Both the position numbers and the translations under genes were made by a program. A stretch of DNA of 27,122 bases from a virus, in IMG/VR virus record IMGVR_UViG_3300029858_000001, positions 1-27,122 of that record, one strand, 5' to 3'. This document shows, one piece after another, positions 2,205 to 23,065 of this stretch (position 1 is the stretch's first letter; the number at the start of each line of letters is the position of its first letter). The notes below the pieces were generated by a model. It saw only the letters and a list, made by a program, of their open reading frames with translations, was not told the DNA's origin and made no database searches.

Positions 2205-2421
2205 ACTGGTTGAAAAAACTGATTGGAATAAATACCGGAAAAAAGATATTCTTGATTTGGTCAAAGAGCATCCTGAACTTCTGGATATGACACCTGTTCA
2301 GCTTCGTACTAGAGCCAGAGATTTGGATTGGGATGCTGATGGATACATGAATAAAGTTAATAGCCTTGAAAATGAAGCGTCTTTGACCAGAGATTTAATT
2401 GAAATTATGTATGGAGAGTGA
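2179..2421 (+). CDS. hypothetical protein (about 80 aa; the ORF also opens at 2008 but that start overlaps 1956-2204)
   Basis: Internal ATG at 2179 is preceded by GAGGGGATTTTTGAAG. The frame is shared with track ORF 2008-2421. Confidence 0.4.
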   Translation: MMNIAELIKLVEKTDWNKYRKKDILDLVKEHPELLDMTPVQLRTRARDLDWDADGYMNKVNSLENEASLTRDLIEIMYGE

Positions 2422-3233
2422 TAATTATGAATTACCATTCAGATAAATGGGTTATGGATAAAGTAGAAACTCATTTAGAAGCAGCTAATGTTAGAAGCGA
2501 AAATTGGGTTAGTTTAATGGCTTATGGTAGCCAGAATTATGGTCTTGATACTCAATCGTCTGATGTAGATACCCGGCTTATTGTTCTTCCTTCATTTGAA
2601 GATATTGTATTAAATAAGAAGCCGGTATCTTATACCAAGATTCTTCCTAATGATGAACACATTGATTTTAAAGATATTCGTTTGTTCATTGATTGTTTAA
2701 AGAAACAGAATATGGCTTATCTTGAATGTATTTTCACTCCTTATAAAATGGCATCAAGCGAATATTGGAATGAATGGCAGGAGCTGCTCAATGAGCGTGA
2801 AGCTATTGCCCGTTATAATCCTTATAAGGCAGTTAAAACTATGAAGGGTATTGCTATGGAAAAATACCATGCAATGGAACATAGATATCCTATCAAGGTT
2901 CCCCTAATTGATACATATGGTTATGATAGTAAGCAGCTTATGCATTTGTTCCGTATTGAACAGTATCTTGGACGTTATATTGATGGGGTTAAGTATGCTG
3001 ATTGTCTTCCAGCACCAAGGGGTGATTATCTTCTTGCTGTAAAAAATTATCACTATGATCTTGAAGCTGCACGAATTGTAGCTAAAACTGCTATTGACAA
3101 TATTACAAGAGTAGCTGATAATTATTGTGCCAAAACTAAAGATGAAGGTAATAAAGAACTTGAAGATTTTATGAATAATGTCGTTTATAAAATCATGAAG
3201 AAAAGAGTAGTAAAGGAAATGTTAAATGTCTAA
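2418..3233 (+). CDS. Pol-beta superfamily nucleotidyltransferase (MNT-like)
   Basis: Motif GSQNYGLDTQSSDVDTRLIV matches the minimal nucleotidyltransferase signature G-S-x9-13-D-x-D. Confidence 0.6.
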   Translation: MIIMNYHSDKWVMDKVETHLEAANVRSENWVSLMAYGSQNYGLDTQSSDVDTRLIVLPSFEDIVLNKKPVSYTKILPNDEHIDFKDIRLFIDCLKKQNMAYLECIFTPYKMASSEYWNEWQELLNEREAIARYNPYKAVKTMKGIAMEKYHAMEHRYPIKVPLIDTYGYDSKQLMHLFRIEQYLGRYIDGVKYADCLPAPRGDYLLAVKNYHYDLEAARIVAKTAIDNITRVADNYCAKTKDEGNKELEDFMNNVVYKIMKKRVVKEMLNV

Positions 3234-3417
3234 CGAAAATATGACTATTGAAATTGATATTCGAGATATTGAAGAAATTGAAAAGAATATCGAAATTTTA
3301 GCTGAATGGATGACAAATCATTATACACGATTTGGTGCTCAAGCAATTGCACTTACAGCCATTTTTGATAAAGTAGAGGAATTAAAGAAAGAGCTGGCTG
3401 AAGAAGAAAATACATAA
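3226..3417 (+). CDS. small acidic protein (63 aa)
   Basis: ORF overlapping the previous stop. It is Glu-rich. Confidence 0.4.
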   Translation: MSNENMTIEIDIRDIEEIEKNIEILAEWMTNHYTRFGAQAIALTAIFDKVEELKKELAEEENT

Positions 3418-3430
3418 GGAGGAACCTTCA

Positions 3431-4210
3431 ATGTTCAAGGACTATTTGATTAGAGGCGACTGTCATGGTGATTTTACATGGCTTAATGCAAAAATGTTTA
3501 GAATTTTAAATCCAAAAGACTATGCAATCATCATTCTTGGAGATGTTGGTTTTAATACTGGTAGTACATTCCGAGATAATATGAAGAAAGAATACGCAAG
3601 CCAGTTTGGATATTTTATTTATTGTGTGCGGGGCAATCATGAAGTACGTCCTGAGAACATTGAAGGCATGGAGCGTGTTTGGGATAGTAATGTTCAAGCT
3701 AATGTATGGTATGAGCCAGCTTATCCTCTAATTAGATATTTTGATAATTACGGGATTTATTATCTTAAAACTGAAGATAGAGAATATCGTACATTAGTTA
3801 TTGGTGGTGCTTATTCTGTTGATAAATATTATCGTCTTAAAAACAATCTGCTTTGGTGGGAAGATGAACAATTAAGCGATAAAGAAAAGGCTGATGCTGA
3901 AATGCTTATTCGACAAACTAATAAGCATTTTGATCTTGTACTATCACACACATGCCCTTATTCTCTTAGGCCAGTTGATAAATTCCTTTCAGTAGTAGAT
4001 CAATCTACTGTAGATACCTCTATGGAAGAATGGCTTGAAGAAATTAAGAATATGATTACATATGATGTATGGCTTAGTGGTCATTATCATTGCGATAAAT
4101 TTATTAATAAGCATAATATTATCTTTTTTAATTGTATCGACCCTTTGGAAGATATTTTCCTTTGGCATGATAAAATGGATGATACTGTAAATAATATTGA
4201 CCGCTTTTAA
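3431..4210 (+). CDS. calcineurin-like metallophosphoesterase (Ser/Thr phosphatase-like)
   Basis: Motifs GDCHGD, ILGDVGFNTG and VRGNHE match the GDxHG / GDxxDRG / GNHE phosphoesterase signature. The RBS is AGGAGGAACC. Confidence 0.75.
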   Translation: MFKDYLIRGDCHGDFTWLNAKMFRILNPKDYAIIILGDVGFNTGSTFRDNMKKEYASQFGYFIYCVRGNHEVRPENIEGMERVWDSNVQANVWYEPAYPLIRYFDNYGIYYLKTEDREYRTLVIGGAYSVDKYYRLKNNLLWWEDEQLSDKEKADAEMLIRQTNKHFDLVLSHTCPYSLRPVDKFLSVVDQSTVDTSMEEWLEEIKNMITYDVWLSGHYHCDKFINKHNIIFFNCIDPLEDIFLWHDKMDDTVNNIDRF

Positions 4211-7165: not shown

Positions 7166-7236
7166 TTGAAATTTTTAAAATAAAATAATATAATATATAC
7201 ATAAAATAAAGAAAAAATAAAAGGAGTTATTAAATT

Positions 7237-11393: not shown

Positions 11394-12005
11394 ATGATTT
11401 TAAGAATAATTTATAATGAAAATGAATCTTATGATTATGATTTAGGAGAATACCATACAGATAAATTTAAACTTTTGACAAGTGTTTATCCAGCTTGTGA
11501 AATTAATATATTATATTTCCATGATATTAATGATACAGAAAATTCTAAATTTGATAAAATTGCAAAAGAAATTCAATCAAAACCTTTTTTATTAATTAAA
11601 GAAGTTCAAATTTTAAATAAAAATACTGTTGTTTTTAAACAAAATAGAATGATAAAAAATATTGTTTATAGAGATATTTTTTATTCTGCTGGTCATAATT
11701 TAATTAAAGAAGAAGCTTTAACATTTAAATTCCAAGAAAATTGTAAAGCTATCATTGATAGAGAAAAAGAACAAATTTTTTGTGATAAAGAAAATTGTAT
11801 GTATTTTAAACAAGGACATTGTTTTAATTATAATACAGACCTTTATCAAAGTGGAGAAGAATTTGTTCCTTGTTATCCTTGTTTTCTTGAATGTGATACT
11901 GGATTTAAATTTTCTGAAATTTATTCATTTTATACAAAGTTACAAAATAAGGCAGAAGATGAGGGACATTTACCTTATCAACCTTATACAATAAGAGATA
12001 ATTGA
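11394..12005 (+). CDS. hypothetical protein (203 aa), Cys-containing
   Basis: ORF immediately after the previous stop. Confidence 0.5.
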   Translation: MILRIIYNENESYDYDLGEYHTDKFKLLTSVYPACEINILYFHDINDTENSKFDKIAKEIQSKPFLLIKEVQILNKNTVVFKQNRMIKNIVYRDIFYSAGHNLIKEEALTFKFQENCKAIIDREKEQIFCDKENCMYFKQGHCFNYNTDLYQSGEEFVPCYPCFLECDTGFKFSEIYSFYTKLQNKAEDEGHLPYQPYTIRDN

Positions 12006-12060
12006 AAAAAATAAAAAAATAATATATAATATATATATAAAATAAAGAAAAAAATAAATA

Positions 12061-12377: not shown

Positions 12378-12453
12378 GGGTAAATTTCTTAATTTGAAAA
12401 AATTAAAAAAATATAATATAATATATAAGTAATCAATAAGAAATCAAATAAAT

Positions 12454-12602
12454 GCTCTCGTAGCTCAATTGGTCAGAGCCGGCGACTTATCCAAGATTAG
12501 TTTAAATGGTAAAATAGTCTATGCGCAAGAAAGATGTGAGTTCAAGCCTAACATCTTGGGCCAAATCGCCAGATGTGGGTTCAAATCCCGACGGGAGCAC
12601 CA
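12454..12602 (+). tRNA. tRNA (Ile-like, anticodon loop CTTAT|AA, UAU) interrupted by a 73-nt tRNA-like insertion (12491-12563) after anticodon position 36
   Basis: Outer acceptor GCTCTCG / CGGGAGC-A-CCA. D-arm GCTC-AATTGGTCA-GAGC. Anticodon-stem GGCGA / TCGCC is split by the insert. The insert has termini CCAAGAT / ATCTTGG, a T-arm GTGAG-TTCAAGC-CTAAC, and its own G-CCA. Confidence 0.5.
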
Positions 12603-12628
12603 TATTCCAATAGAAAGGAATTAAAATA

Positions 12629-12868
12629 ATGAAGTTGACGAATATTAAACAGGTTGAAGATTTTATTGCAGCGGTTAATCGCGCTCATAGTAATGTATGG
12701 CTGGTAAGTCCGCAGGGTGACAGATACAATATGAAATCTGCACTTTCACAATATATCGCGCTTGGCGCATTACTTGGTCAGCATGGTGATGAACTGGAAC
12801 TTTTCTGTGATAGTAAGCAAGATGAAGGCTTATTTATTGAATTTTTCATAAAATATCCTGAAGTATAA
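12629..12868 (+). CDS. hypothetical protein (79 aa)
   Basis: RBS GAAAGGAATTAAAATAATG. It lies between tRNA genes and the nuclease gene. Confidence 0.5.
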   Translation: MKLTNIKQVEDFIAAVNRAHSNVWLVSPQGDRYNMKSALSQYIALGALLGQHGDELELFCDSKQDEGLFIEFFIKYPEV

Positions 12869-12871
12869 ATT

Positions 12872-13795
12872 ATGCCTAAACTTATTGATATTCCGATAGA
12901 AACTAAATTTAATAGATGGACTGTTCTTAAAAGAGATACTACTAAGAAACGAGGATACTGGTTTTGTTAGTGCGATTGTGGTAATCCTGAAATTAGAAGT
13001 ATAAATATTACTACATTAAAAAGTGGACGTTCAAAATCTTGTGGTAAATGTGGATAGTATGATGAAATTGGTAAGACTTATGGACGTTTAAAAGTTCTTG
13101 AAGTTGATTTAGATTATAAAGAGTAGTATAAGACTAAAGTTTCAGGTTATTATTATAAATGTTAGTGCTCTTGTGAAAATAAAACAATTATTACCGTAAG
13201 TGGCATTAATTTAAGAAATGGACATACAAAATCTTGCGGATGCTTAATTAAAGAAGGGTGTAATAAAAAAGATCTAACAGGTCAAGTTTTTGGGTTTTTA
13301 AAAGTTTTATATCCGACTGAATAGAGGGTATCTTCTTATATCATTTGGCATTGTCGTTGTTTAAATTGTAATAATGAATGTGATGTTTCATCCAGAAATT
13401 TAATTGAAGGAAGAACTAGCTCTTGTGGATGTTTGCGTTCAGTTGGAGAAGCAAATATAAAAAAAATATTGCAAAATAATTAGATAGATTTTTCTTAGGA
13501 AAAAAATTTTTCAGATTTAATTAATCCAGATACTACATATTTATTACGTTATGATTTTTATTTACCTCAATTTAATAGGCTTATAGAATTTGATGGAGAG
13601 TAGCATTTTAAATATAAAAAAAATAATTCTACTTGGAACAATGAAGAAAATTATTTAAAAACAGTGCATAATGATAAAATAAAAAATGATTATGCTAAAT
13701 AGCACAATATTCCATTAGTTCGTATTCCTTACTGGGAACGTGATAATATTACTCTTGATATGTTATTAGGAGATTAGTATTTAATTAACAAATAA
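12872..13795 (+). CDS. free-standing homing-endonuclease-like protein: three tandem Cys4 zinc-finger repeats (W-C-x-C-x-C-G-N ... S-C-G-C) plus a C-terminal Vsr/PD-(D/E)XK-like nuclease domain (YRYDFYLPQFNRLIEFDGEQHF). Contains 10 in-frame TAG sense codons.
   Basis: Hand translation gives a single frame from ATG 12872 to TAA 13793. The only interruptions are TAG. The repeats WFC(TAG)CDCGNPE, YKC(TAG)CSCENK and WHCRCLNCNNE are each followed by SCG(K)C. Confidence 0.65.
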
Positions 13796-13900
13796 TTTAT
13801 TGAATTTTTTGTCCATCATCCTGAAGTTTAATTGAAAAATTAAAAAAAATATTATAAAATATATATACAAAATAAATGAGAAATAAATTCTCATTTGTAT

Positions 13901-13977
13901 GGGACAGTAGCTTACGAGGTCGGAGCATTGGTCTGAAAAACCAAAGGATGGAGGTTCGATACCTCTCTGTCCCACCA
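13901..13977 (+). tRNA. tRNA-Phe (GAA)
   Basis: Acceptor GGGACAG / CTGTCCC. Anticodon loop CTGAAAA. T-arm GGAGG-TTCGATA-CCTCT. The discriminator is A and CCA is encoded. Confidence 0.85.
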
Positions 13978-13978
13978 A

Positions 13979-14058
13979 TTGGTCTTATACATGGGGTTTT
14001 CGATTTGAACTAGGCAGATTAGTCACCTGCCGTTGGCAATAGACCAATTAAAAATAAA
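13979..14058. ncRNA. short structured element / degenerate tRNA-like hairpin enclosed by TTGGTCT / AGACCAA
   Basis: 7-bp terminal helix. It has an internal GGCAG-ATTAGTCAC-CTGCC stem-loop that reads GTGACTAAT on the minus strand. No canonical cloverleaf forms on either strand. Confidence 0.25.
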
Positions 14059-14195
14059 CTGAGGCAAAGGGAAATCGGGTAGCTATGATGAATTTCATAG
14101 TAAAATCCTCTCATAATCAAGCTAATTGGGAGAGGGGTAGCACGGGAACGGGGAGAAGCGTGCTATAAAAGGTGAAATACTTCTTTCCACCATAT

Positions 14196-14271
14196 GCCGG
14201 TGTAGCCGAATGGCATAGGCGAATGATTTAGGATCATTAATCTGAAGGTTCGAGTCCTTTCACCGGTACCA
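14196..14271 (+). tRNA. tRNA with anticodon UAG (decodes CUN Leu codons) but a type-I (short variable arm) body
   Basis: Acceptor GCCGGTG / CACCGGT-A-CCA. Anticodon-stem AATGA / TCATT. Loop TTTAGGA. T-arm GAAGG-TTCGAGT-CCTTT. Confidence 0.65.
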
Positions 14272-14355
14272 ACAGTGAAGTAGTAGCTATACTCACTATA
14301 ATCAAGGCTCGGTGGTTGGTGGCTCCATCGTTATGTAAATAAGTCATATATATAT

Positions 14356-14426
14356 TACTTCTTGGTGTAATGGAAGCATGCTGCCTGAAAGAGGCGGAGG
14401 TATTGGTTCAATTCCAATAGAAGGAT
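14356..14426 (+). tRNA. tRNA-like element lacking a canonical anticodon loop (loop TGAAAGA or GAAAG pentaloop)
   Basis: Acceptor TACTTCT / AGAAGGA with one mismatch. T-arm ATTGG-TTCAATT-CCAAT is perfect. Anticodon-stem CTGCC / GGCGG. No CCA. Confidence 0.35.
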
Positions 14427-14795
14427 TAATTAAAGCTGGGAAATAATAGTCGCCCATAACTAATTATTTAATATAGGACTATTATTAAAGGTTATTTAAG
14501 TTAAAGAAATGCGGTTGAAGTTATTACTAACTTGATTATAAAATAACATGACCGCAAGACGAGTGTTTGAAGCTTGTCTATAAACAAATTCTTCATATGT
14601 TGTCTTTTTATACTTACTCTTTGGTTGTTTCTTGACATATAAGTAAAAACGGAAAGGGAGTTAAAGGTTCAGCTAAAAAACCGGTTTGTTTTTTGATAAG
14701 GTTTTAAAAATTATTAGGTGACAAAATCTTATTTGAGTGACGCTGCTCAGGAGGGTCCGGAACCTCTGAAATGCGTATAATAAAGGAGATAAAAT

Positions 14796-14972
14796 ATGAA
14801 ATTTCAATTAAGGTATTTTCATTGTCCTATTTGTCATTTACAAATGACGGCTCCTAAAACCAAGAATTTCAAAAAATCTTCTTATAAAGGGAAAAAACAT
14901 CGAAAAATAATGTATTGCATTAATTGTAAAAAAGAACAAAATTTTATTTTAGATGAAATTTCTATTGTATAA
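14796..14972 (+). CDS. small zinc-ribbon protein (58 aa; CPIC...CINC)
   Basis: ATG with RBS AAAGGAG. It is not in the ORF track because it is under 60 aa. Hand-translated MKFQLRYFHCPICHLQM...CINCKKEQNFILDEISIV. Confidence 0.45.
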   Translation: MKFQLRYFHCPICHLQMTAPKTKNFKKSSYKGKKHRKIMYCINCKKEQNFILDEISIV

Positions 14973-15011
14973 ATGATGGTGTGGCCTAGCGGTAAGGCAC
15001 CTGCCTTTGAT

Positions 15012-15745
15012 TTAGTAGCATAAGTAATGCAATTTCGAACTGGGTCAAAGAAGGTTAAGAGAATTAATTTAGGAATTAAATAACAGTGAAAGGAGCTGTT
15101 ATTTATGGCTAAAACTAATTCAGAAAATGTATGTAATTTTGTTAGAAATAGAAAAGCTAATTTAATTTCTTTATTTCATAGTAAATGTTGTATTTGTGGT
15201 TTCGATAAATTTCAAGAAGCTTTAGAATTTCATCATATAAATCCTAAAGAAAAAGAAATTTCTCTATCAGCTAATACAATGGTGTCATTAGAACGTCAAA
15301 TCAATGAGGCTAAAAAATGTATTTTAGTTTGTTCTAATTGCCATAAGGGAATACATGCTGGATATTATCAAATTCCTTCTAATTATTAGGATTTATTTGA
15401 TAATGAATAGGCAGAATATTTATTATAGATGAATAAAGAAATTAAAGAAGGTAAAAAACATTATTGCAAACAATGTGGTAAATTATTAAATTCTAATACA
15501 ACTTATTGTTTAGATTGTAGTCATATTATTTAGCGTAAAACAGAAAGACCAGATAGAGAAACTTTAAAGTAGTTAATTCGTAATTAGTCTTTCGTAGCAA
15601 TAGGTAAATAGTATGGAGTAAGTGATAATGCTATTCGCAAATGGTGTGTTTCTATGAATTTACCTACTAAAAAAACAGAAATTAACCTTTATAATGACGT
15701 CTAGTGGGAATAGATATAAGTTCAAATCTTGTTTAAATCACCATA
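15012..15745 (+). mobile_element. intervening sequence (intron-like) inside the tRNA-Gln anticodon loop, carrying a homing endonuclease gene
   Basis: It lies between the exon halves above. It contains ORF 15105-15719. A hairpin AACAG-TGAAAGGAGC-CTGTT presents the SD. Confidence 0.6.
15105..15719 (+). CDS. HNH homing endonuclease (N-terminal HNH: CCICGF...HHINPKE...CSNCH; C-terminal HTH: LIRN(Q)SFVAIGK(Q)YGVSDNAIRKWC) with 7 in-frame TAG sense codons
   Basis: The standard-code ORF is 15105-15389. With TAG read as sense the frame continues to TAA 15717. The frame was verified codon by codon. Confidence 0.7.
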
Positions 15746-15784
15746 AGCAGGGTACCGAGGGTTCAAATCCCTCCACCATCACCA

Positions 15785-16315
15785 GGTCAAGTTTGAGAAA
15801 TTTCATAAAGCATCGCTGACGTTAAATGGCACTTATATGAAAACGCGTAAGTAATATAAGATAGCAAAATTCTCGTAGTTCATCCTATTAGAGAATCTTA
15901 AAGAGTAATGGCAAGATCATATCGCGGGAGACCGTGCGTATGAGATACCAATAAAGGTAGCACATCTTGTGTTGAGCAAGATAAAAGATGGAAAGGATAC
16001 CTGCCATGCTTGGACGGTAAAAGAAGGCGTTGAATGTAATCGAAAAACATTCCGTTGGTTCTTAGGGGAGCGACGTAACAGTGAAACCCGAGGTTTGAGT
16101 CACCTTGTCCAAACGCTATGTATAGTCAAAGTCTAGGCAACAAGGTTTTAATTAGAGTTAATATTGTTTTAATTAAACTCATACTTGTGGAAATCAAGCA
16201 GGTCCACCTTACTGGGCCTACTGTAAAAGCCAGTTTGATATAGCCTCCATACCCAATGAGGATTTTTATAAAAGTCTATTTAATTTTTCGGGCGGTTTAA
16301 TTAGATAGATTAAAT
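15785..16315. ncRNA. about 530-nt non-coding, comparatively GC-richer, hairpin-rich region between tRNA-Gln and tRNA-Val. Candidate structured RNA of unknown class.
   Basis: No ORF in any frame even allowing TAG. TAA/TGA are dense in all frames. Many local helices are present (GTGGA...TCCAC, CCTC...GAGG). It contains a TATAGTC motif reminiscent of group I P7 but no matching GACTA partner. Confidence 0.3.
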
Positions 16316-16392
16316 GCCGAGATAGTGCAACTGGTTAACACGTCGCTTTTACACAGCGAAGAGTCTGAGTTCAAGTCTCAGTCTCGGCACCA
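16316..16392 (+). tRNA. tRNA-Val (UAC)
   Basis: Acceptor GCCGAGA / TCTCGGC-A-CCA. Anticodon-stem TCGCT / AGCGA. Loop TTTACAC. T-arm CTGAG-TTCAAGT-CTCAG. Confidence 0.85.
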
Positions 16393-16457
16393 ACAAATTT
16401 GAAAATTTAAAAAAAATATTATATAATATATATATAATAATAAAGGAGATATTTGAA

Positions 16458-16622
16458 ATGGCAACTACTAAGAAACCTGCAATTAAAATGGATAATACAG
16501 AGTTGAACGAGTATCTTCTGTTTCGCCGTCGTAGATCTATTGTTCCTGCTAAGAAAGGCAAGGGCATGGAATATGATAGAGCAAAGGAAAAAGAAAAGTC
16601 AAGAGATTTGGCTTCTGATTAA
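16458..16622 (+). CDS. small basic protein (54 aa)
   Basis: RBS AAAGGAG. Hand-translated MATTKKPAIKMDNTELNEYLLFRRRRSIVPAKKGKGMEYDRAKEKEKSRDLASD. It is embedded in the tRNA operon. Confidence 0.45.
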   Translation: MATTKKPAIKMDNTELNEYLLFRRRRSIVPAKKGKGMEYDRAKEKEKSRDLASD

Positions 16623-17373: not shown

Positions 17374-17519
17374 AATCCGCCAAGCAAGGTTCAATTCCTT
17401 GGTTTCCCGCCACCGCACTCGCGGAAAACATACAACTCAACTGGTGCATAGAACTGGATGGAGCGTTCTATTAGTCTGATGCCTGCATTAGATTAAGTTT
17501 TATAACCATCATACTTGGG

Positions 17520-17590
17520 GACATAGTTTATGGTAGGAAAACGTTGAATTTAATTCAAAGTCGAGGGTTCGAATCCCACTCCCGCAACCA
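17520..17590 (+). tRNA. tRNA-like 3' element (GAGGG-TTCGAAT-CCCAC ... TCCCGCA-A-CCA) with an unresolved 5' partner. Possibly another split or degenerate tRNA.
   Basis: Canonical T-loop and a CCA end. No complementary acceptor 5' strand was found within 150 nt. Confidence 0.25.
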
Positions 17591-20159: not shown

Positions 20160-21638
20160 ATGGATAAAATTATAAATTGTTTAGATAAAATAAATTGGAA
20201 AACTGTTATAATAGTTTCTGGAGGATGTAATTTAAATTGTAAGTACTGTTTAGTTAATAAATCTAAATCAGGAACTAACTATCCTAATTTTTTAAAAGAT
20301 ACTAATGCTGCGATAGCTAATGGTTCTTACTTAGATACTTTTAAAAAAGCATTTTAGAAATATAATCAAAGTCCTCGCCAAGTTGAAATTATGGAATTAT
20401 GGGGCAATGAACCAACTTTAATGCTTAAAGATTTAAATAAAGTTTGGAAAGACTGGTTAGAAGTTTTTTCTGGATTAAAAGGAATGACTTTTTCAACAAA
20501 CGGAATTGATTGTACTGATGATATATTTAATTTTATTTTAGAAATAGATAAGTATATCGACCATGAAATAGAAATAAGTATTTAGTATTCTTATGATGGC
20601 TTTCAAGGTGAAATAAATGAAAGACAACATAACAAAGAGAAGAAAGATACAGAATAGGATAGCATAGTTATTAATAATTTAATTAATTTAATAACAAAAC
20701 TTAACAGTGTAAAATTACATAATGTTAAAATAGATTTTATTCTTCATGCTGTACTATCTATGTTTATTGTAGATAATTTTAATACAACTGAAGATATTAG
20801 TAAATTTGTTGAACAATATATGGATACACTATATAGAATTAATCAATCTATTATCAACCAAAGAATTATATTCCGTGGAGGAGTATTTTTACATGAAAAT
20901 GCTCATGATTGGACCAGCGATGATGGAATTAATTATTGTAGCTTTATGAGAAAGTTCCAAAATATTTTAAGTGCTAAGAAACATAATTTTAAAAATGAAG
21001 GCGTCCAATATAGACATATTTTTAAAGAAGTTTTTGGAACTTTAGAAGAGGATATAATTAGTTTATGTTATAAAACTAATTGTCGTTCAATTGATACATT
21101 AATAGATAATTTTATAACTAATAAAGATTTACCAATTAATAGTTATTGTAGTTCTTTTGATGGTGTTTTACGAATAGATTATCAAGGAAATCTTTTAGAC
21201 TGCCATGCTTCTTTATATGACCCTTACCTAGAAAAGGATAAATTAACTAATACAATTTTAGATCAGGGTCGATGGATGTGTAAAGAACATGGACGGTATC
21301 TTAATATTCTAAAAAATGATAAAGAAGAAATTGAAAAATTACTTGATTTTTATCTTACTGCTCGTGACCCAACGGTAACTTTATTTGAAACATAGCAAAT
21401 GATAAATAAAATATATTTATTAGCTTTATGTGGATAGGCTAATGAATCTTATCTATATGATTTTAATAAATTAAAACGTCATGCTTTTATACTGGCTAAA
21501 GCATATCAATGCTATAATATATTAAAATGCCGGAATGGCTCTATTTTTGTTAGAGGAAATGAAGAAATAAGATTTTTCTGTAATGGTATTTTAGATATAG
21601 CTGAAGAAAATATAAATAGAGAAATTGGAGATTTTTAA
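20160..21638 (+). CDS. radical SAM enzyme with a SPASM/twitch domain (CNLNCKYC is CxxxCxxC; GNEPTL is the GGEP-like motif; CSSFDGVLRIDYQGNLLDC is Cx12Gx4C). It includes 4-5 TAG sense codons. Track fragments 20160-20357, 20391-20585 and 20760-21395 are one frame.
   Basis: All fragments are in frame 0 and separated only by TAG (20355, 20583, 20655). After TAG 21393 the same frame continues through a Cys-rich tail (ALCGQ, YQCYNILKCRNG, FFCNG) to TAA 21636. The minimal end is 21395. Confidence 0.65.
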
Positions 21639-21640
21639 TA

Positions 21641-23065
21641 ATGACTTATAAAGAACAAGAAAGAGATTTATTAAAATTATATTTAGATACAGCTTTATTA
21701 CCATATCCCACTAATTCAAATTCTGATGGAGACTATTTTTTAAATGAAAATGGATTTGAATTAATAGTACGTCCTTAGTGTAATTAGCATTGTTCATATT
21801 GCTATATAGCTAATTATGGCAAAGAACTTTATCCAACAGTGTTAAATAAAAAGGATACTTTAAAAAATATTGATCTTGTTTTAGATTATGTTTATAATAT
21901 AAGAAAAAATTTCTGTTATAATATAGCTCTGTTTGCCGGAGATATGTTTAATGATGAAATTTTCTTTGATATTGTTGATCTGCTTGAAAAATATCTAAAT
22001 CCTATTTTAATAAAACATCCTGAATATTTTAATAAACAGGGTTTAATTCAATGTCCTTGTAATTTACGATGGGTATATGAAAAACCTCAATTAGTATCAA
22101 GATTTAGAAAAATATATTATCATTTTAAAAATGTTTATAATATATATATGAGTTTTTCTTGGAGTACTGATGGATTACCAGCAATAAAAAATAGAGAAAA
22201 AATTGATATAGATCAACATTATTTTGATACTATTTTTTAGTTTACTAAAGAATTTGGTTTCGGATACCATCCTATGATTAGTGCCGAAAATATTGATGTT
22301 TGGTGTGAAAATATTGATTGGTGGTATGACATGTATAAGAAATTTGATTTAGCTGCTCCTAATGGTTATTATCAACCTTATATGCTTGAAGTACGTAATG
22401 GTAATTGGACTCCAGAAACTATTGAATTACATAATAAATTTCTTGAACATTTTATGAAAAAAAGATTTGAATTATGTGATAGTGATAAAACTAAATTTGT
22501 ACATCATTTATTAATTGGGACTGATGAAGATGGAAATTTACCATTCCCTCAAGGATGTGATCCATTAGATTTAAAATCCAGTAGCTCAACAAGTAGTAAT
22601 TTTGATAAAATGAGCTGTGGTGCTTAGAGTATGATTCATTTTAATTGTACTAATCTATCTTTAGTATTTTGTCATAGAATGTCTTATCCTCTTTACACTG
22701 GTGGGTATTTTAAAACAGATGAAGAGAAAAATCATATTATTGATATAGATCCCTATAATGTAAGTGCATATATAACTATGAAAACGGCAAAAACAACTAC
22801 TTTCCCTTTGTGCGCAAAATGCAAATACTTTAGTCTTTGCAAGTTAGGATGTCTTGGGGCTTAGACTGAAGATAGTGGAGAACCTTATATGCCAATTAAA
22901 GCTGTTTGTGCTTTTAATAAAGTTAAATATGAAAAATTGACTGATTTATATTATCAATATGGTGTTTATGATATAGGAGTTAAAAAAGGTTGGCTCACAA
23001 AAGATAAATCTTGGTTAACATTTATCTACAATCAAGGAATAGAAAGAGGGTATATAAATGAATAA
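21641..23065 (+). CDS. second radical SAM / SPASM enzyme (P(Q)CN(Q)HCSYC is CxxxCxxC with two TAG inside the motif; C-terminal CAKCKYFSLCKLGC is CxxCx5Cx3C). Track fragments 21839, 22274 and 22631 are one frame with 5 TAG.
   Basis: Frame 2 is continuous from ATG 21641 (RBS GGAGAT) to TAA 23063. The interruptions at 21776, 21785, 22238, 22625 and 22862 are all TAG. Confidence 0.65.

What the first reader, a model, noticed from the sequence alone, without database searches (positions are those of the whole stretch)
15785..16315. 530-nt GC-enriched non-coding, hairpin-dense region between tRNA-Gln and tRNA-Val
It cannot encode protein in any frame even with TAG as sense. It is markedly less AT-rich than intergenic DNA elsewhere and is full of local helices. 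It lies inside a tRNA operon, where large ncRNAs are often co-transcribed. It has no tRNA ends, no tmRNA signature (no 5' GGGG or T-arm at the ends) and no clear group I P7 pair.
Basis: seen in the sequence. Interest (0 to 1): 0.55.

Follow-up and report, generated by a model that had tools for sequence, protein, structure and literature searches.

The report
Mosaic of new phage tRNA-array RNAs
The 531-base gap between two phage tRNA genes is not one large RNA but at least three separate non-coding RNA cassettes, and one of them, about 160 nt long, belongs to a previously undescribed folded RNA family of unknown function.

Summary
The region (15785-16315) is non-coding and lies inside a tRNA transcription unit of a TAG-recoded human-gut phage. 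It is not a single 530-nt RNA. Related contigs show at least three cassettes that occur independently: A (15785-15988), B (15989-16149) and C (16155-16315).

B is the solid result. I found 17 distinct sequences in about 10 lineages, always on the tRNA strand and often abutting tRNA ends. In the 16 sequences counted, 99.1% of helix cells were paired and 16 of 27 pairs showed compensatory double changes (0 of 500 shuffles; slid controls 4 or fewer). A loop-loop pseudoknot is probable. B matches no Rfam 15 family even at E<=10. A has moderate support and C has weak support.

Folding-energy z-scores are not significant (-0.4 to -1.4), so "hairpin-dense" is not beyond chance. GC enrichment is modest (0.377 against 0.309). 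The upstream gene is an intron-split tRNA-Lys(UUU), not tRNA-Gln.

Sister phages carry ROOL, tmRNA and skipping-rope RNAs in the same arrays, which places these cassettes among the orphan tRNA-cluster RNAs. The most likely mechanism is co-transcription with the tRNAs, release by tRNA-processing enzymes, and action in trans. Function is unknown.

The parts
13832..13860 (+). Promoter-like motif (TTGAAAAATTAAAAAAAATATTATAAAAT) that opens the tRNA transcription unit containing the region
   Evidence: The same motif recurs at 12394 and 16399.
14975..15784 (+). Upstream neighbour: tRNA-Lys(UUU). 5' exon 14975-15008, 735-nt insertion 15009-15743 with an HNH ORF (15105-15719, TAG read as sense), 3' exon 15744-15784 ending in CCA
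   Evidence: The intact allele in L031 joins window 15008 directly to 15744. Pfam HNH match. ARAGORN's 'tRNA-Leu(caa) 15690-15784' is a mis-call.
15785..15911 (+). Module A1: a long-range helix encloses two hairpins, followed by a third hairpin. The loop at 15839-15853 carries the palindrome ACGCGT
   Evidence: Conserved in three lineages (the window group; L063/L059/L084; L098). Compensatory changes at 3 pairs and 99.8% of cells paired.
15912..15988 (+). Module A2: three hairpins, including an 11-pair stem with a GAGA tetraloop at 15918-15942. Absent from L098
   Evidence: All substitutions keep pairing (U-G to C-G and similar), but there are no double changes.
15989..16149 (+). Module B: a new ~160-nt structured RNA family (the covariance-model match extends to 16154).
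- P0: 15990-15991 with 16088-16089
- P1: 15996-15998 with 16029-16031, and 16000-16002 with 16025-16027
- P2: 16007-16010 with 16016-16019
- P3: 16032-16037 with 16047-16052
- Conserved core: 16053-16101
- P5: 16102-16110 with 16136-16146
   Evidence: Model R1/R2 hits at 193-199 bits. 17 distinct members. In the 16 counted, 99.1% of cells paired, 16 of 27 pairs with double changes, 0 of 500 shuffles, slid controls 4 or fewer. Coordinates.
16011..16015 (+). P2 loop UGGAC, the 5' partner of the proposed pseudoknot
   Evidence: Complementary to the 3' end of the P5 loop in all 17 members. The summed match over 8 representative sequences exceeded 2000 of 2000 loop shuffles.
16131..16135 (+). GUCUA at the 3' end of the P5 loop, the 3' partner of the proposed pseudoknot
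   Evidence: The partner reads GUCCG in L011, GUCCA in L100, AGUCA in L040 and GUCA in L024, matching the loop in each.
16155..16315 (+). Module C: an AT-rich hairpin, a ~60-nt two-hairpin core C1 (16184-16244), a short hairpin, and a long AT-rich hairpin just before tRNA-Val
   Evidence: Present only in close relatives (L031, L081, L036). C1 resembles the whole spacer between two tRNA-Gly genes in L010, with ACUG/CAGU changed to AUCG/CGAU. In L036 a tRNA-Val separates C from B.
16316..16392 (+). Downstream neighbour: tRNA-Val(UAC), the last gene of the unit
   Evidence: 65.2 bits.
16399..16427 (+). Next copy of the promoter-like motif, which starts the following unit

Best explanation
The spacer is a mosaic of at least three independent non-coding RNA cassettes (A, B, C) in the tRNA gene array of a TAG-recoded gut phage of about 190-200 kb.

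They are transcribed with the tRNAs from the upstream phage promoter. The enzymes that mature the flanking tRNAs then cut them out: RNase P at the 5' end of the next tRNA, and 3'-end processing of the preceding tRNA.

B is the founding member of a new family. It is a compact RNA of about 160 nt with five helices, a probable loop-loop pseudoknot, and a long invariant stretch for which I could assign no helix. That build is typical of RNAs that bind a protein, a ligand or another RNA, or that catalyse a reaction. I infer that B acts in trans as a stable RNA during infection, most plausibly in the tRNA, translation or anti-defence business that the rest of the array serves.

Shown: non-coding status, modularity, strand, conservation, secondary structure, and boundaries at tRNA ends. 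Inferred: co-transcription, excision by tRNA-processing enzymes, stability, and action in trans. Unknown: the molecular target.
For: Modularity:
- B occurs alone between two tRNAs in L041 and L077. It sits directly after tRNA-Pro in L085 and after tRNA-Gln in L100, and 19-33 nt after tRNA-Thr (L011), tRNA-Tyr (L049) or tRNA-Lys (L040).
- A tRNA-Val lies between B and C in L036.
- A is truncated in L098.

Boundaries:
- The next tRNA starts 3-8 nt after helix P5 in 10 of 18 loci.
- The previous tRNA ends 1-3 nt before B in 3 loci by ARAGORN, plus 4-5 nt by eye in L041.

Structure of B:
- On the MAFFT alignment, 12 of 35 predicted pairs show compensatory changes.
- On the model alignment, 99.1% of cells are paired, 16 of 27 pairs show double changes, 0 of 500 shuffles reach this, and slid controls give 1-4.
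- L100 adds C-G to U-A in P1.
- The remote member L024 (19 bits with R1, 68 bits with R2, which was built with L024 included) keeps every helix with different sequence.
- An invariant U-G pair and many other G-U pairs would be A-C mismatches on the other strand, so the + strand RNA is the functional molecule.

Transcription: promoter motifs flank the unit and none lies inside it. In L024 a perfect TTGACA-17-TATAAT promoter precedes B.

Context: sister arrays carry ROOL, tmRNA and skipping-rope RNAs.

Precedent: T4 RNAC and RNAD come from the T4 tRNA region and have unknown roles (PMC3014915). GOLLD and ROOL lie near tRNAs and in prophages (PMC5737381).
Against: - There are no expression data, so a discrete stable species is not shown.
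- MFE z-scores are unremarkable.
- No protein family tracks the presence of B in the loci I held, so no partner is identified.
- B is absent from 27 of 29 twelve-kb array segments of related phages, so it is dispensable for the phage family.
- The central 49 nt has no assigned fold.
- Support for the pseudoknot rests mostly on conserved complementarity, with only one or two independent covarying events.
- The alignments for A and C are shallow: three lineages for A, and two for C (the window group and L010).
Confidence: 0.6

Rival explanations
1. The region is one large ornate RNA of about 530 nt, a divergent relative or analogue of ROOL or GOLLD.
For: The length is close to ROOL's (574 model positions). 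ROOL is present in the tRNA arrays of sister phages: L085 at 315 bits and L049 at 185 bits. In the window lineage and L081, A, B and C are contiguous.
Against: There is no ROOL or GOLLD match even at E<=10. L085 and L049 carry both ROOL and B as separate genes with tRNAs between them. A, B and C occur separately, and in L036 a tRNA interrupts them.
Confidence: 0.07
2. The cassettes are cis-acting parts of the tRNA precursor. They act as folding insulators or guides for RNases that help neighbouring tRNAs mature, and are degraded afterwards with no function in trans.
For: They always lie between or next to tRNAs on the same strand, with boundaries at tRNA ends. No partner protein was found. They are dispensable in many relatives.
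Against: Many tRNAs in the same arrays are separated by only 1-6 nt and evidently need no such element. In two lineages B is followed by a promoter or an ORF rather than a tRNA (L085, L011). A 15-nt block with no assigned pairing, invariant across lineages that have rewritten every helix, is more constraint than a spacer needs.
Confidence: 0.17
3. The region is decaying debris: remnants of introns, homing-endonuclease elements or dead tRNA genes left by rearrangements in a recombination-prone array.
For: The array is in flux. There is an HNH-bearing insertion in the adjacent tRNA-Lys, a tRNA-like insert inside another tRNA, and differing cassette orders among near-identical relatives.
Against: Compensatory substitutions and invariant blocks across about 10 lineages show purifying selection on an RNA fold for B and, more weakly, for A. 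There is no similarity to tRNA, group I or group II models. This remains possible for the AT-rich parts of C.
Confidence: 0.05
4. The region works at the DNA level, as a protein-binding site, origin or packaging signal, or it encodes a small peptide.
For: The palindromes ACGCGT, ATGCAT and GCGCGT in module A could be a site for a dimeric DNA-binding protein. An ORF of 55 codons with a GTG start lies at 15969-16136.
Against: Strand-specific G-U pairs, including one that is invariant, indicate RNA. Indels of 1 and 2 nt between homologues break the ORF. The compensatory changes fit helices, not codons.
Confidence: 0.03

Closest known systems
ROOL RNA (Rfam RF03087) and GOLLD RNA (RF01998)
   Same: Both are orphan structured RNAs of phages and prophages that sit next to tRNA genes and are probably co-transcribed with them (PMC5737381). 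ROOL itself occurs in the tRNA arrays of sister phages that also carry module B (L085, L049). The palindromic hairpin loop in module A recalls the kissing contacts by which these RNAs oligomerise (PMC12286853 is listed; the structural detail is from my own knowledge).
   Different: There is no sequence or structure match at E<=10. The cassettes here are 60-200 nt, not 570-800 nt. B and ROOL coexist as separate genes, so B is not a ROOL fragment.
Phage T4 RNAC and RNAD (stable 'species 1 and 2' RNAs of the T4 tRNA region)
   Same: These are small non-tRNA RNAs encoded among phage tRNA genes and transcribed with them, with roles still unknown (PMC3014915). This is the closest analogy for how the cassettes are made.
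   Different: I made no direct sequence comparison with T4. INPHARED, which includes T4-like phages, gave no DNA match to 15600-16500. The phage lineage, host and genetic code all differ.
Skipping-rope RNA (RF02924) and YrlA / Y-RNA-like RNA (RF02553)
   Same: These are other small structured RNAs in the same kind of array in a B-carrying relative: L049 1627-1693 at 44.3 bits, and a sub-threshold YrlA-like hit at L049 3486-3552.
   Different: Neither model touches A, B or C in any locus.
tmRNA (RF00023)
   Same: tmRNA is encoded in the tRNA array of a related phage (L003 7534-7870, 80 bits). Its size is similar to A plus B.
   Different: The region has no tRNA-like domain, no tag reading frame, and no hit from ARAGORN or Rfam. 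The only tmRNA-like signal is the T-arm of the neighbouring tRNA-Lys.
Candidate structured RNAs from bulk surveys of phage and gut metagenomes (Fremin and co-workers, PMC10690425 and PMC8040213)
   Same: The source data (IMG/VR, human gut) and the kind of evidence (covariation) are the same. B could be among the roughly 10,000 unnamed candidates.
   Different: I could not check this. No supplement text is held for PMC10690425. The B core strings are absent from the 200 searchable supplement files of PMC8040213 and from all full texts searched.

Membership tests
ROOL RNA (RF03087) | A match to the ROOL covariance model at or above 99.1 bits (multi-junction fold of about 580 nt) | tested here: not met
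   No hit in the window at gathering score or at E<=10 over 15500-16500. The same search method finds ROOL at 315 and 185 bits in L085 and L049.
GOLLD RNA (RF01998) | A match to the GOLLD covariance model | tested here: not met
   No hit.
tmRNA (RF00023, permuted RF04321) | A tRNA-like domain (acceptor stem plus T-arm ending in CCA) and an internal tag reading frame | tested here: not met
   ARAGORN finds none in the window. Rfam gives only a 14.8-bit T-arm match at 15756-15773, which belongs to tRNA-Lys.
Group I intron (RF00028) | A conserved P3-P9 catalytic core, and insertion within a host gene with a U before the 5' splice site and a terminal G | tested here: not met
   No Rfam hit at E<=10. 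The region lies between two complete genes, not inside one.
tRNA or tRNA pseudogene | A cloverleaf detectable by ARAGORN or the Rfam tRNA model | tested here: not met
   Nothing within 15785-16315.
RNase P RNA | The conserved P4 helix (CR-I and CR-V) and a match to any Rfam RNase P model | tested here: not met
   No hit at E<=10. A resemblance by eye (GGAAAG..., ACAG..AACCCG) does not survive. Those positions vary among members (GGAAUAA, AUAGG), and the 5' segment pairs locally in P1 with covariation.
T-box leader or other riboswitch | A match to an Rfam model, and a position in the 5' UTR of a regulated gene | tested here: not met
   No Rfam hit. In 10 of 18 loci a tRNA, not an ORF, starts within 8 nt downstream. 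The single-stranded AAAGA and UGGU do not change with the identity of the neighbouring tRNA.
New family 'module B' (defined here) | Helices P1, P2, P3 and P5 in this order, with the blocks UACCUGCC, AAAGAAGGNGUUGA, GGGAGCGACG and AAACCC, located in a phage tRNA array on the tRNA strand | tested here: met
   The window copy scores 198.8 bits with R1 and 193 bits with R2. Note that it was one of the sequences used to build the models. Independent members L098 and L100, which were not used to build R1, score 186.6 and 138 bits with R1.

The most novel reading that the evidence does not exclude
Module B would be a new functional class of RNA: a tRNA-directed binder or decoy, or a ribozyme, that recoded gut phages deploy together with their tRNA sets. 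Module A, with its covarying palindromic loop, would self-associate as ROOL and GOLLD do. More broadly, the tRNA arrays of these phages would be "RNA cassette islands" in which many unrelated structured RNAs are shuffled between tRNA genes and borrow the tRNA-processing machinery for their own maturation. The cassettes seen so far are ROOL, tmRNA, skipping-rope, a YrlA-like element, A, B, C1 and the element at 13978-14078.
Probability: 0.2. Interest if true: 0.8.

Novelty: new member of a known kind. Interest (0 to 1): 0.5.

Why it matters
Phage tRNA clusters have been known since T4 to hide non-tRNA RNAs whose roles remain unknown. ROOL and GOLLD, the best-known examples, now have cryo-EM structures but still no function.

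This locus adds a compact, strongly covarying and apparently pseudoknotted RNA of about 160 nt to that set. B is small enough for chemical probing, binding assays and structure determination.

The locus also shows that in one family of uncultivated, TAG-recoded gut phages such RNAs behave as interchangeable cassettes bounded by tRNA processing sites. If B targets tRNAs, tRNA-cleaving defence nucleases or the translation apparatus, it would bear on how recoded phages take over translation.

If the cassettes turn out to be mere processing spacers, the result is ordinary.

Tried and rejected
- **Rfam 15.** I ran it at gathering score on the window, at E<=10 on 15500-16500, at E<=1 on 12380-15800, and at E<=5 on four loci with divergent B copies. 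Nothing overlaps A, B or C.
- **Single-sequence thermodynamics**. No significant z-score, so this was dropped as evidence.
- **INPHARED.** A blastn of the region and a tblastn of a 547-aa neighbouring protein both gave no match. The phage family is not among deposited genomes.
- **RNase P-like reading of B** (GGAAAG... and ACAG..AACCCG). Rejected, because those positions vary and the 5' part pairs locally.
- **T-box-like reading** (AAA/AAG "specifier" and UGGU against the tRNA NCCA end). Rejected as unsupported. There is no covariation with the neighbouring tRNA, and UGGU is lost in L024.
- **ykkC-like and twister-like resemblances by eye.** No Rfam support.
- **Alternative partners for the P2 loop.** GUCCA in the 5' strand of P5 and GUUUGAG in the junction both fail in L011, L040 and L024.
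- **A hairpin in the core** (CGUUG..CGACG / GUUCU..GGAGC) proposed by RNAalifold has no support, with G-G and gaps at the variable pair.
- **Search for a protein that co-occurs with B**. Only syntenic phage genes turned up.
- **Pattern scans.** Many chance hits were discarded: L030, L032, L033, L037-L039, L042-L048, L050-L058, L060-L062, L064-L070, L072, L076, L078, L079, L082, L083, L087-L097, L099. One scan used a gap range one base too long and missed the true copies.
- **Model R2.** It found no further remote members in 29 array segments of related phages without B.

Full report
**Setting.** The window is AT-rich (GC 0.309) phage-like DNA with essentially all genes on the + strand. TAG is read as sense: treating it so raises the summed + strand ORF length from 5373 to 7820 aa. 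Related contigs are 138-201 kb viral genomes, several labelled human gut. Neither the region nor a 547-aa neighbouring protein has a match in INPHARED.

The finding lies in a tRNA array. A repeated promoter-like motif (TTGAAAA-TTAAAAAAAATAT-TATAAT) occurs at 12394, 13832 and 16399. So 13860-16392 looks like one transcription unit ending with tRNA-Val, and no promoter-like or terminator-like site lies inside 15785-16315 on the + strand.

**The observation.**
- The 531 nt are non-coding. Every frame has at least 5 stops with TAG as sense, and the longest open stretch is 80 codons. Homologues carry 1- and 2-nt indels inside the only ORF-like stretch.
- GC is 0.377, about the 91st percentile of 531-nt windows, and the excess is concentrated in the middle (B, 0.434).
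- "Hairpin-dense" is not supported thermodynamically. Z-scores are -1.05 for the whole region, and -0.41, -0.39 and -1.38 for the three parts.
- Rfam 15 finds nothing in the region at gathering score or at E<=10.
- The upstream gene is mislabelled. The acceptor 5' strand GATGGTG lies at 14975. The 96%-identical relative L031 joins window 15008 directly to 15744, giving an intact tRNA with loop CTTTTAA, which is tRNA-Lys(UUU). A 735-nt insertion carrying an HNH ORF splits the window's copy.

**The region is a mosaic.** Homologues were gathered through a neighbouring PD-(D/E)XK protein and through exact-pattern scans of IMG/VR, metagenomes and GTDB genomes. They show that the three parts travel separately.

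| Loci | Arrangement |
|---|---|
| window, L031, L081 | A - B - C (in the window and L081, then tRNA-Val) |
| L036 | A - B - tRNA-Val - C - tRNA-Val |
| L071, L073, L075 | A - B - tRNA-Val |
| L063, L059 | A - B - tRNA-Ala |
| L084 | A - B (sequence shows a tRNA-Ala start after B; ARAGORN does not call it) |
| L041, L077 | tRNA-Lys - B - tRNA-Ala |
| L098 | tRNA-Lys - first ~125 nt of A - B - tRNA-Lys(CUU) |
| L085 | tRNA-Pro - B - promoter |
| L011, L080 | tRNA-Thr - B - ORF |
| L049 | tRNA-Tyr - B - tRNA-Thr |
| L040 | tRNA-Lys - B - tRNA-Glu |
| L100 | tRNA-Gln - B |
| L024 | promoter - B-like - tRNA-Leu |

B is always on the tRNA strand. The next tRNA begins 3-8 nt after B's last helix in 10 of 18 loci. 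The previous tRNA ends 1-3 nt before B in three loci, and 4-5 nt before it in L041.

**Module B (15989-16149).** Seventeen distinct sequences in about ten lineages share the blocks UACCUGCC, AAAGAAGGNGUUGA, GGGAGCGACG and AAACCC, while every helix has been rewritten.
- RNAalifold on an unbiased MAFFT alignment gives 12 pairs with compensatory changes.
- On the covariance-model alignment of 16 of these sequences, 99.1% of cells pair. Sixteen of 27 pairs show double changes, 0 of 500 shuffles reach this, and partners slid by 1-3 columns give only 1-4.
- Examples. P3 reads GAAUG/CAUUC, GACAG/CUGUC or GAGUA/UACUC. P5 reads ACCUUGU/ACAAGGU, CCAUAU/AUAUGG, GAGCUGU/ACAGCUU or AGCUGUU/AACAGCU. P2 has four pair types per position. 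P1 changes from C-G to U-A in L100.
- The remote member L024 scores only 19 bits with model R1, yet it aligns end to end with all helices intact.
- G-U pairs, one of them invariant, assign the RNA to the + strand.
- The P2 loop (UGGAC, or UGACU in L040 and L024) is complementary to the last bases of the P5 loop (GUCUA, GUCCG, GUCCA, AGUCA or GUCA) in all 17 sequences. No loop shuffle reaches the summed match, computed over 8 representative sequences (0 of 2000). Independent covariation for this pseudoknot is limited to one or two events.
- The most conserved 49 nt (16053-16101) have no helix I could support.
- No Rfam family overlaps B in the window or in divergent copies. The core strings occur in no searchable paper or supplement.

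**Modules A and C.**
- A (15785-15988) is found only next to B and in three lineages. All but one of 410 helix cells pair, three pairs show double changes against 0-1 in slid controls, and the rest vary on one side or not at all. This is moderate support.
- A's second hairpin has a 15-nt loop with the palindrome ACGCGU. L098 has AUGCAU, where two changes keep the palindrome, and L063 and L059 have GCGCGU. This fits loop-loop self-association but rests on a single double change.
- C is present only in close relatives. Its core C1 resembles the entire spacer between two tRNA-Gly genes in L010, with ACUG/CAGU replaced by AUCG/CGAU. This is weak support. The AT-rich hairpins of C may be mere spacer.

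**Context and mechanism.** Rfam on related loci finds ROOL (L085 at 315 bits, L049 at 185 bits), tmRNA (L003 at 80 bits), skipping-rope (L049) and a sub-threshold YrlA-like element in the same arrays. In L085 and L049, ROOL and B coexist with tRNAs between them. Another spacer of the window's unit (13978-14078) is also a conserved cassette with compensatory changes in L040.

These arrays are therefore hubs for structured RNAs bounded by tRNA processing sites. The closest precedents are T4 RNAC and RNAD (PMC3014915) and the tRNA-adjacent ROOL and GOLLD (PMC5737381).

I conclude that the cassettes are co-transcribed with the tRNAs and released by RNase P and tRNA 3'-end processing. This is inferred from the boundaries and the promoters. 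I also conclude that B acts in trans as a stable folded RNA, which is inferred from its invariant unassigned core and its pseudoknot. No protein partner emerged, and B is absent from 27 of 29 array segments of relatives. Its target is unknown. A purely cis-acting role in processing remains the main rival.

**Verdict.** This is a real feature whose main component is a new RNA family, in a known genomic niche for orphan phage RNAs. The single-large-RNA reading is not supported. Interest is moderate. It would be high if B proves to be a tRNA-directed or catalytic RNA, or if A self-assembles.

Noticed in passing
window 14975-15784: tRNA-Lys(UUU) is split in its anticodon loop, after CUUU, by a 735-nt insertion (15009-15743). 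The insertion holds a 204-aa HNH endonuclease ORF (15105-15719, with in-frame TAG codons). The relative L031 has the uninterrupted gene. The insertion ends in ...CACCA rather than G, and no group I model matches it, so the way it is removed, if it is, is unclear. L081 and probably L041 carry the same kind of split.
   Followed up: partly
window 12454-12599 (insert at 12491-12563): A tRNA inside a tRNA. The outer tRNA scores 42.7 bits with the Rfam tRNA model. Its anticodon loop contains a 73-nt insert that ARAGORN, at a relaxed threshold, folds as a complete cloverleaf with a 7-bp acceptor stem, a T-arm, anticodon GCG and an encoded GCCA end. Similar over-long tRNAs occur at L010 39-164, 171-288 and 583-697, and at L031 4015-4159.
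   Followed up: partly
window 13978-14078 (also 14272-14355 and 14427-14795): Other non-tRNA spacers of the same transcription unit are conserved too. The ~100 nt after tRNA-Phe recur in L040 6909-7003 with compensatory changes in a hairpin (GGCAG..CUGCC, GGUAG..CUACC, GAUAG..CUAUC). This suggests further RNA cassettes.
   Followed up: partly
L085 6007-6586 (-), L049 1-418 (-), L003 7534-7870 (+), L049 1627-1693 (-), L049 3486-3552 (-): The tRNA arrays of related phages encode ROOL RNA (315 and 185 bits), a tmRNA (80 bits), a skipping-rope RNA (44 bits) and a sub-threshold YrlA-like element (37 bits). The window itself has none of these.
   Followed up: yes
window 15839-15853: The hairpin loop GAAAACGCGUAAGUA in module A contains the 6-nt palindrome ACGCGU. 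L098 has AUGCAU at the same place, where two changes preserve the palindrome. L063 and L059 have GCGCGU. This may be a kissing-loop dimerisation site, or a DNA-level palindrome.
   Followed up: partly
window 12394-12422, 13832-13860, 16399-16427 (also 12002-12030, 7166-7194): A recurring, very AT-rich promoter-like motif (TTGAAAA..TTAAAAAAAATAT..TATAAT) precedes tRNA blocks and small ORFs. The same motif follows module B in L085.
   Followed up: partly
window 2418-4210 and 20160-23065: Two neighbouring genes suggest RNA repair: an RlaP-like nucleotidyltransferase of the "RNA repair pathway DNA polymerase beta family" and a calcineurin-like phosphoesterase. Further on are two large paralogous ORFs. 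The first has a Pfam Radical SAM match; the second was not searched but shows a radical-SAM-type CxxxCxxC motif (CSYCYIANYGKE) by eye. The repair genes fit a phage that contends with tRNA damage.
   Followed up: no
window 14356-14426 and 17517-17584: Two weak or odd tRNA calls. One is tRNA-Phe(AAA) at 38 bits. The other is a 32.6-bit tRNA seen only by Rfam. No suppressor tRNA(CUA) lies in this window although TAG is sense. Related arrays have one, which ARAGORN labels 'tRNA-Pyl(cta)' in L010 and L011.
   Followed up: no
L098 (JAUNFB010000037.1, 13 kb): A contig binned in an Erysipelotrichia MAG carries ten tRNAs plus A1 and B (186.6 bits). It is probably a phage contig. If the binning is meaningful, it hints at a Firmicutes host.
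   Followed up: no
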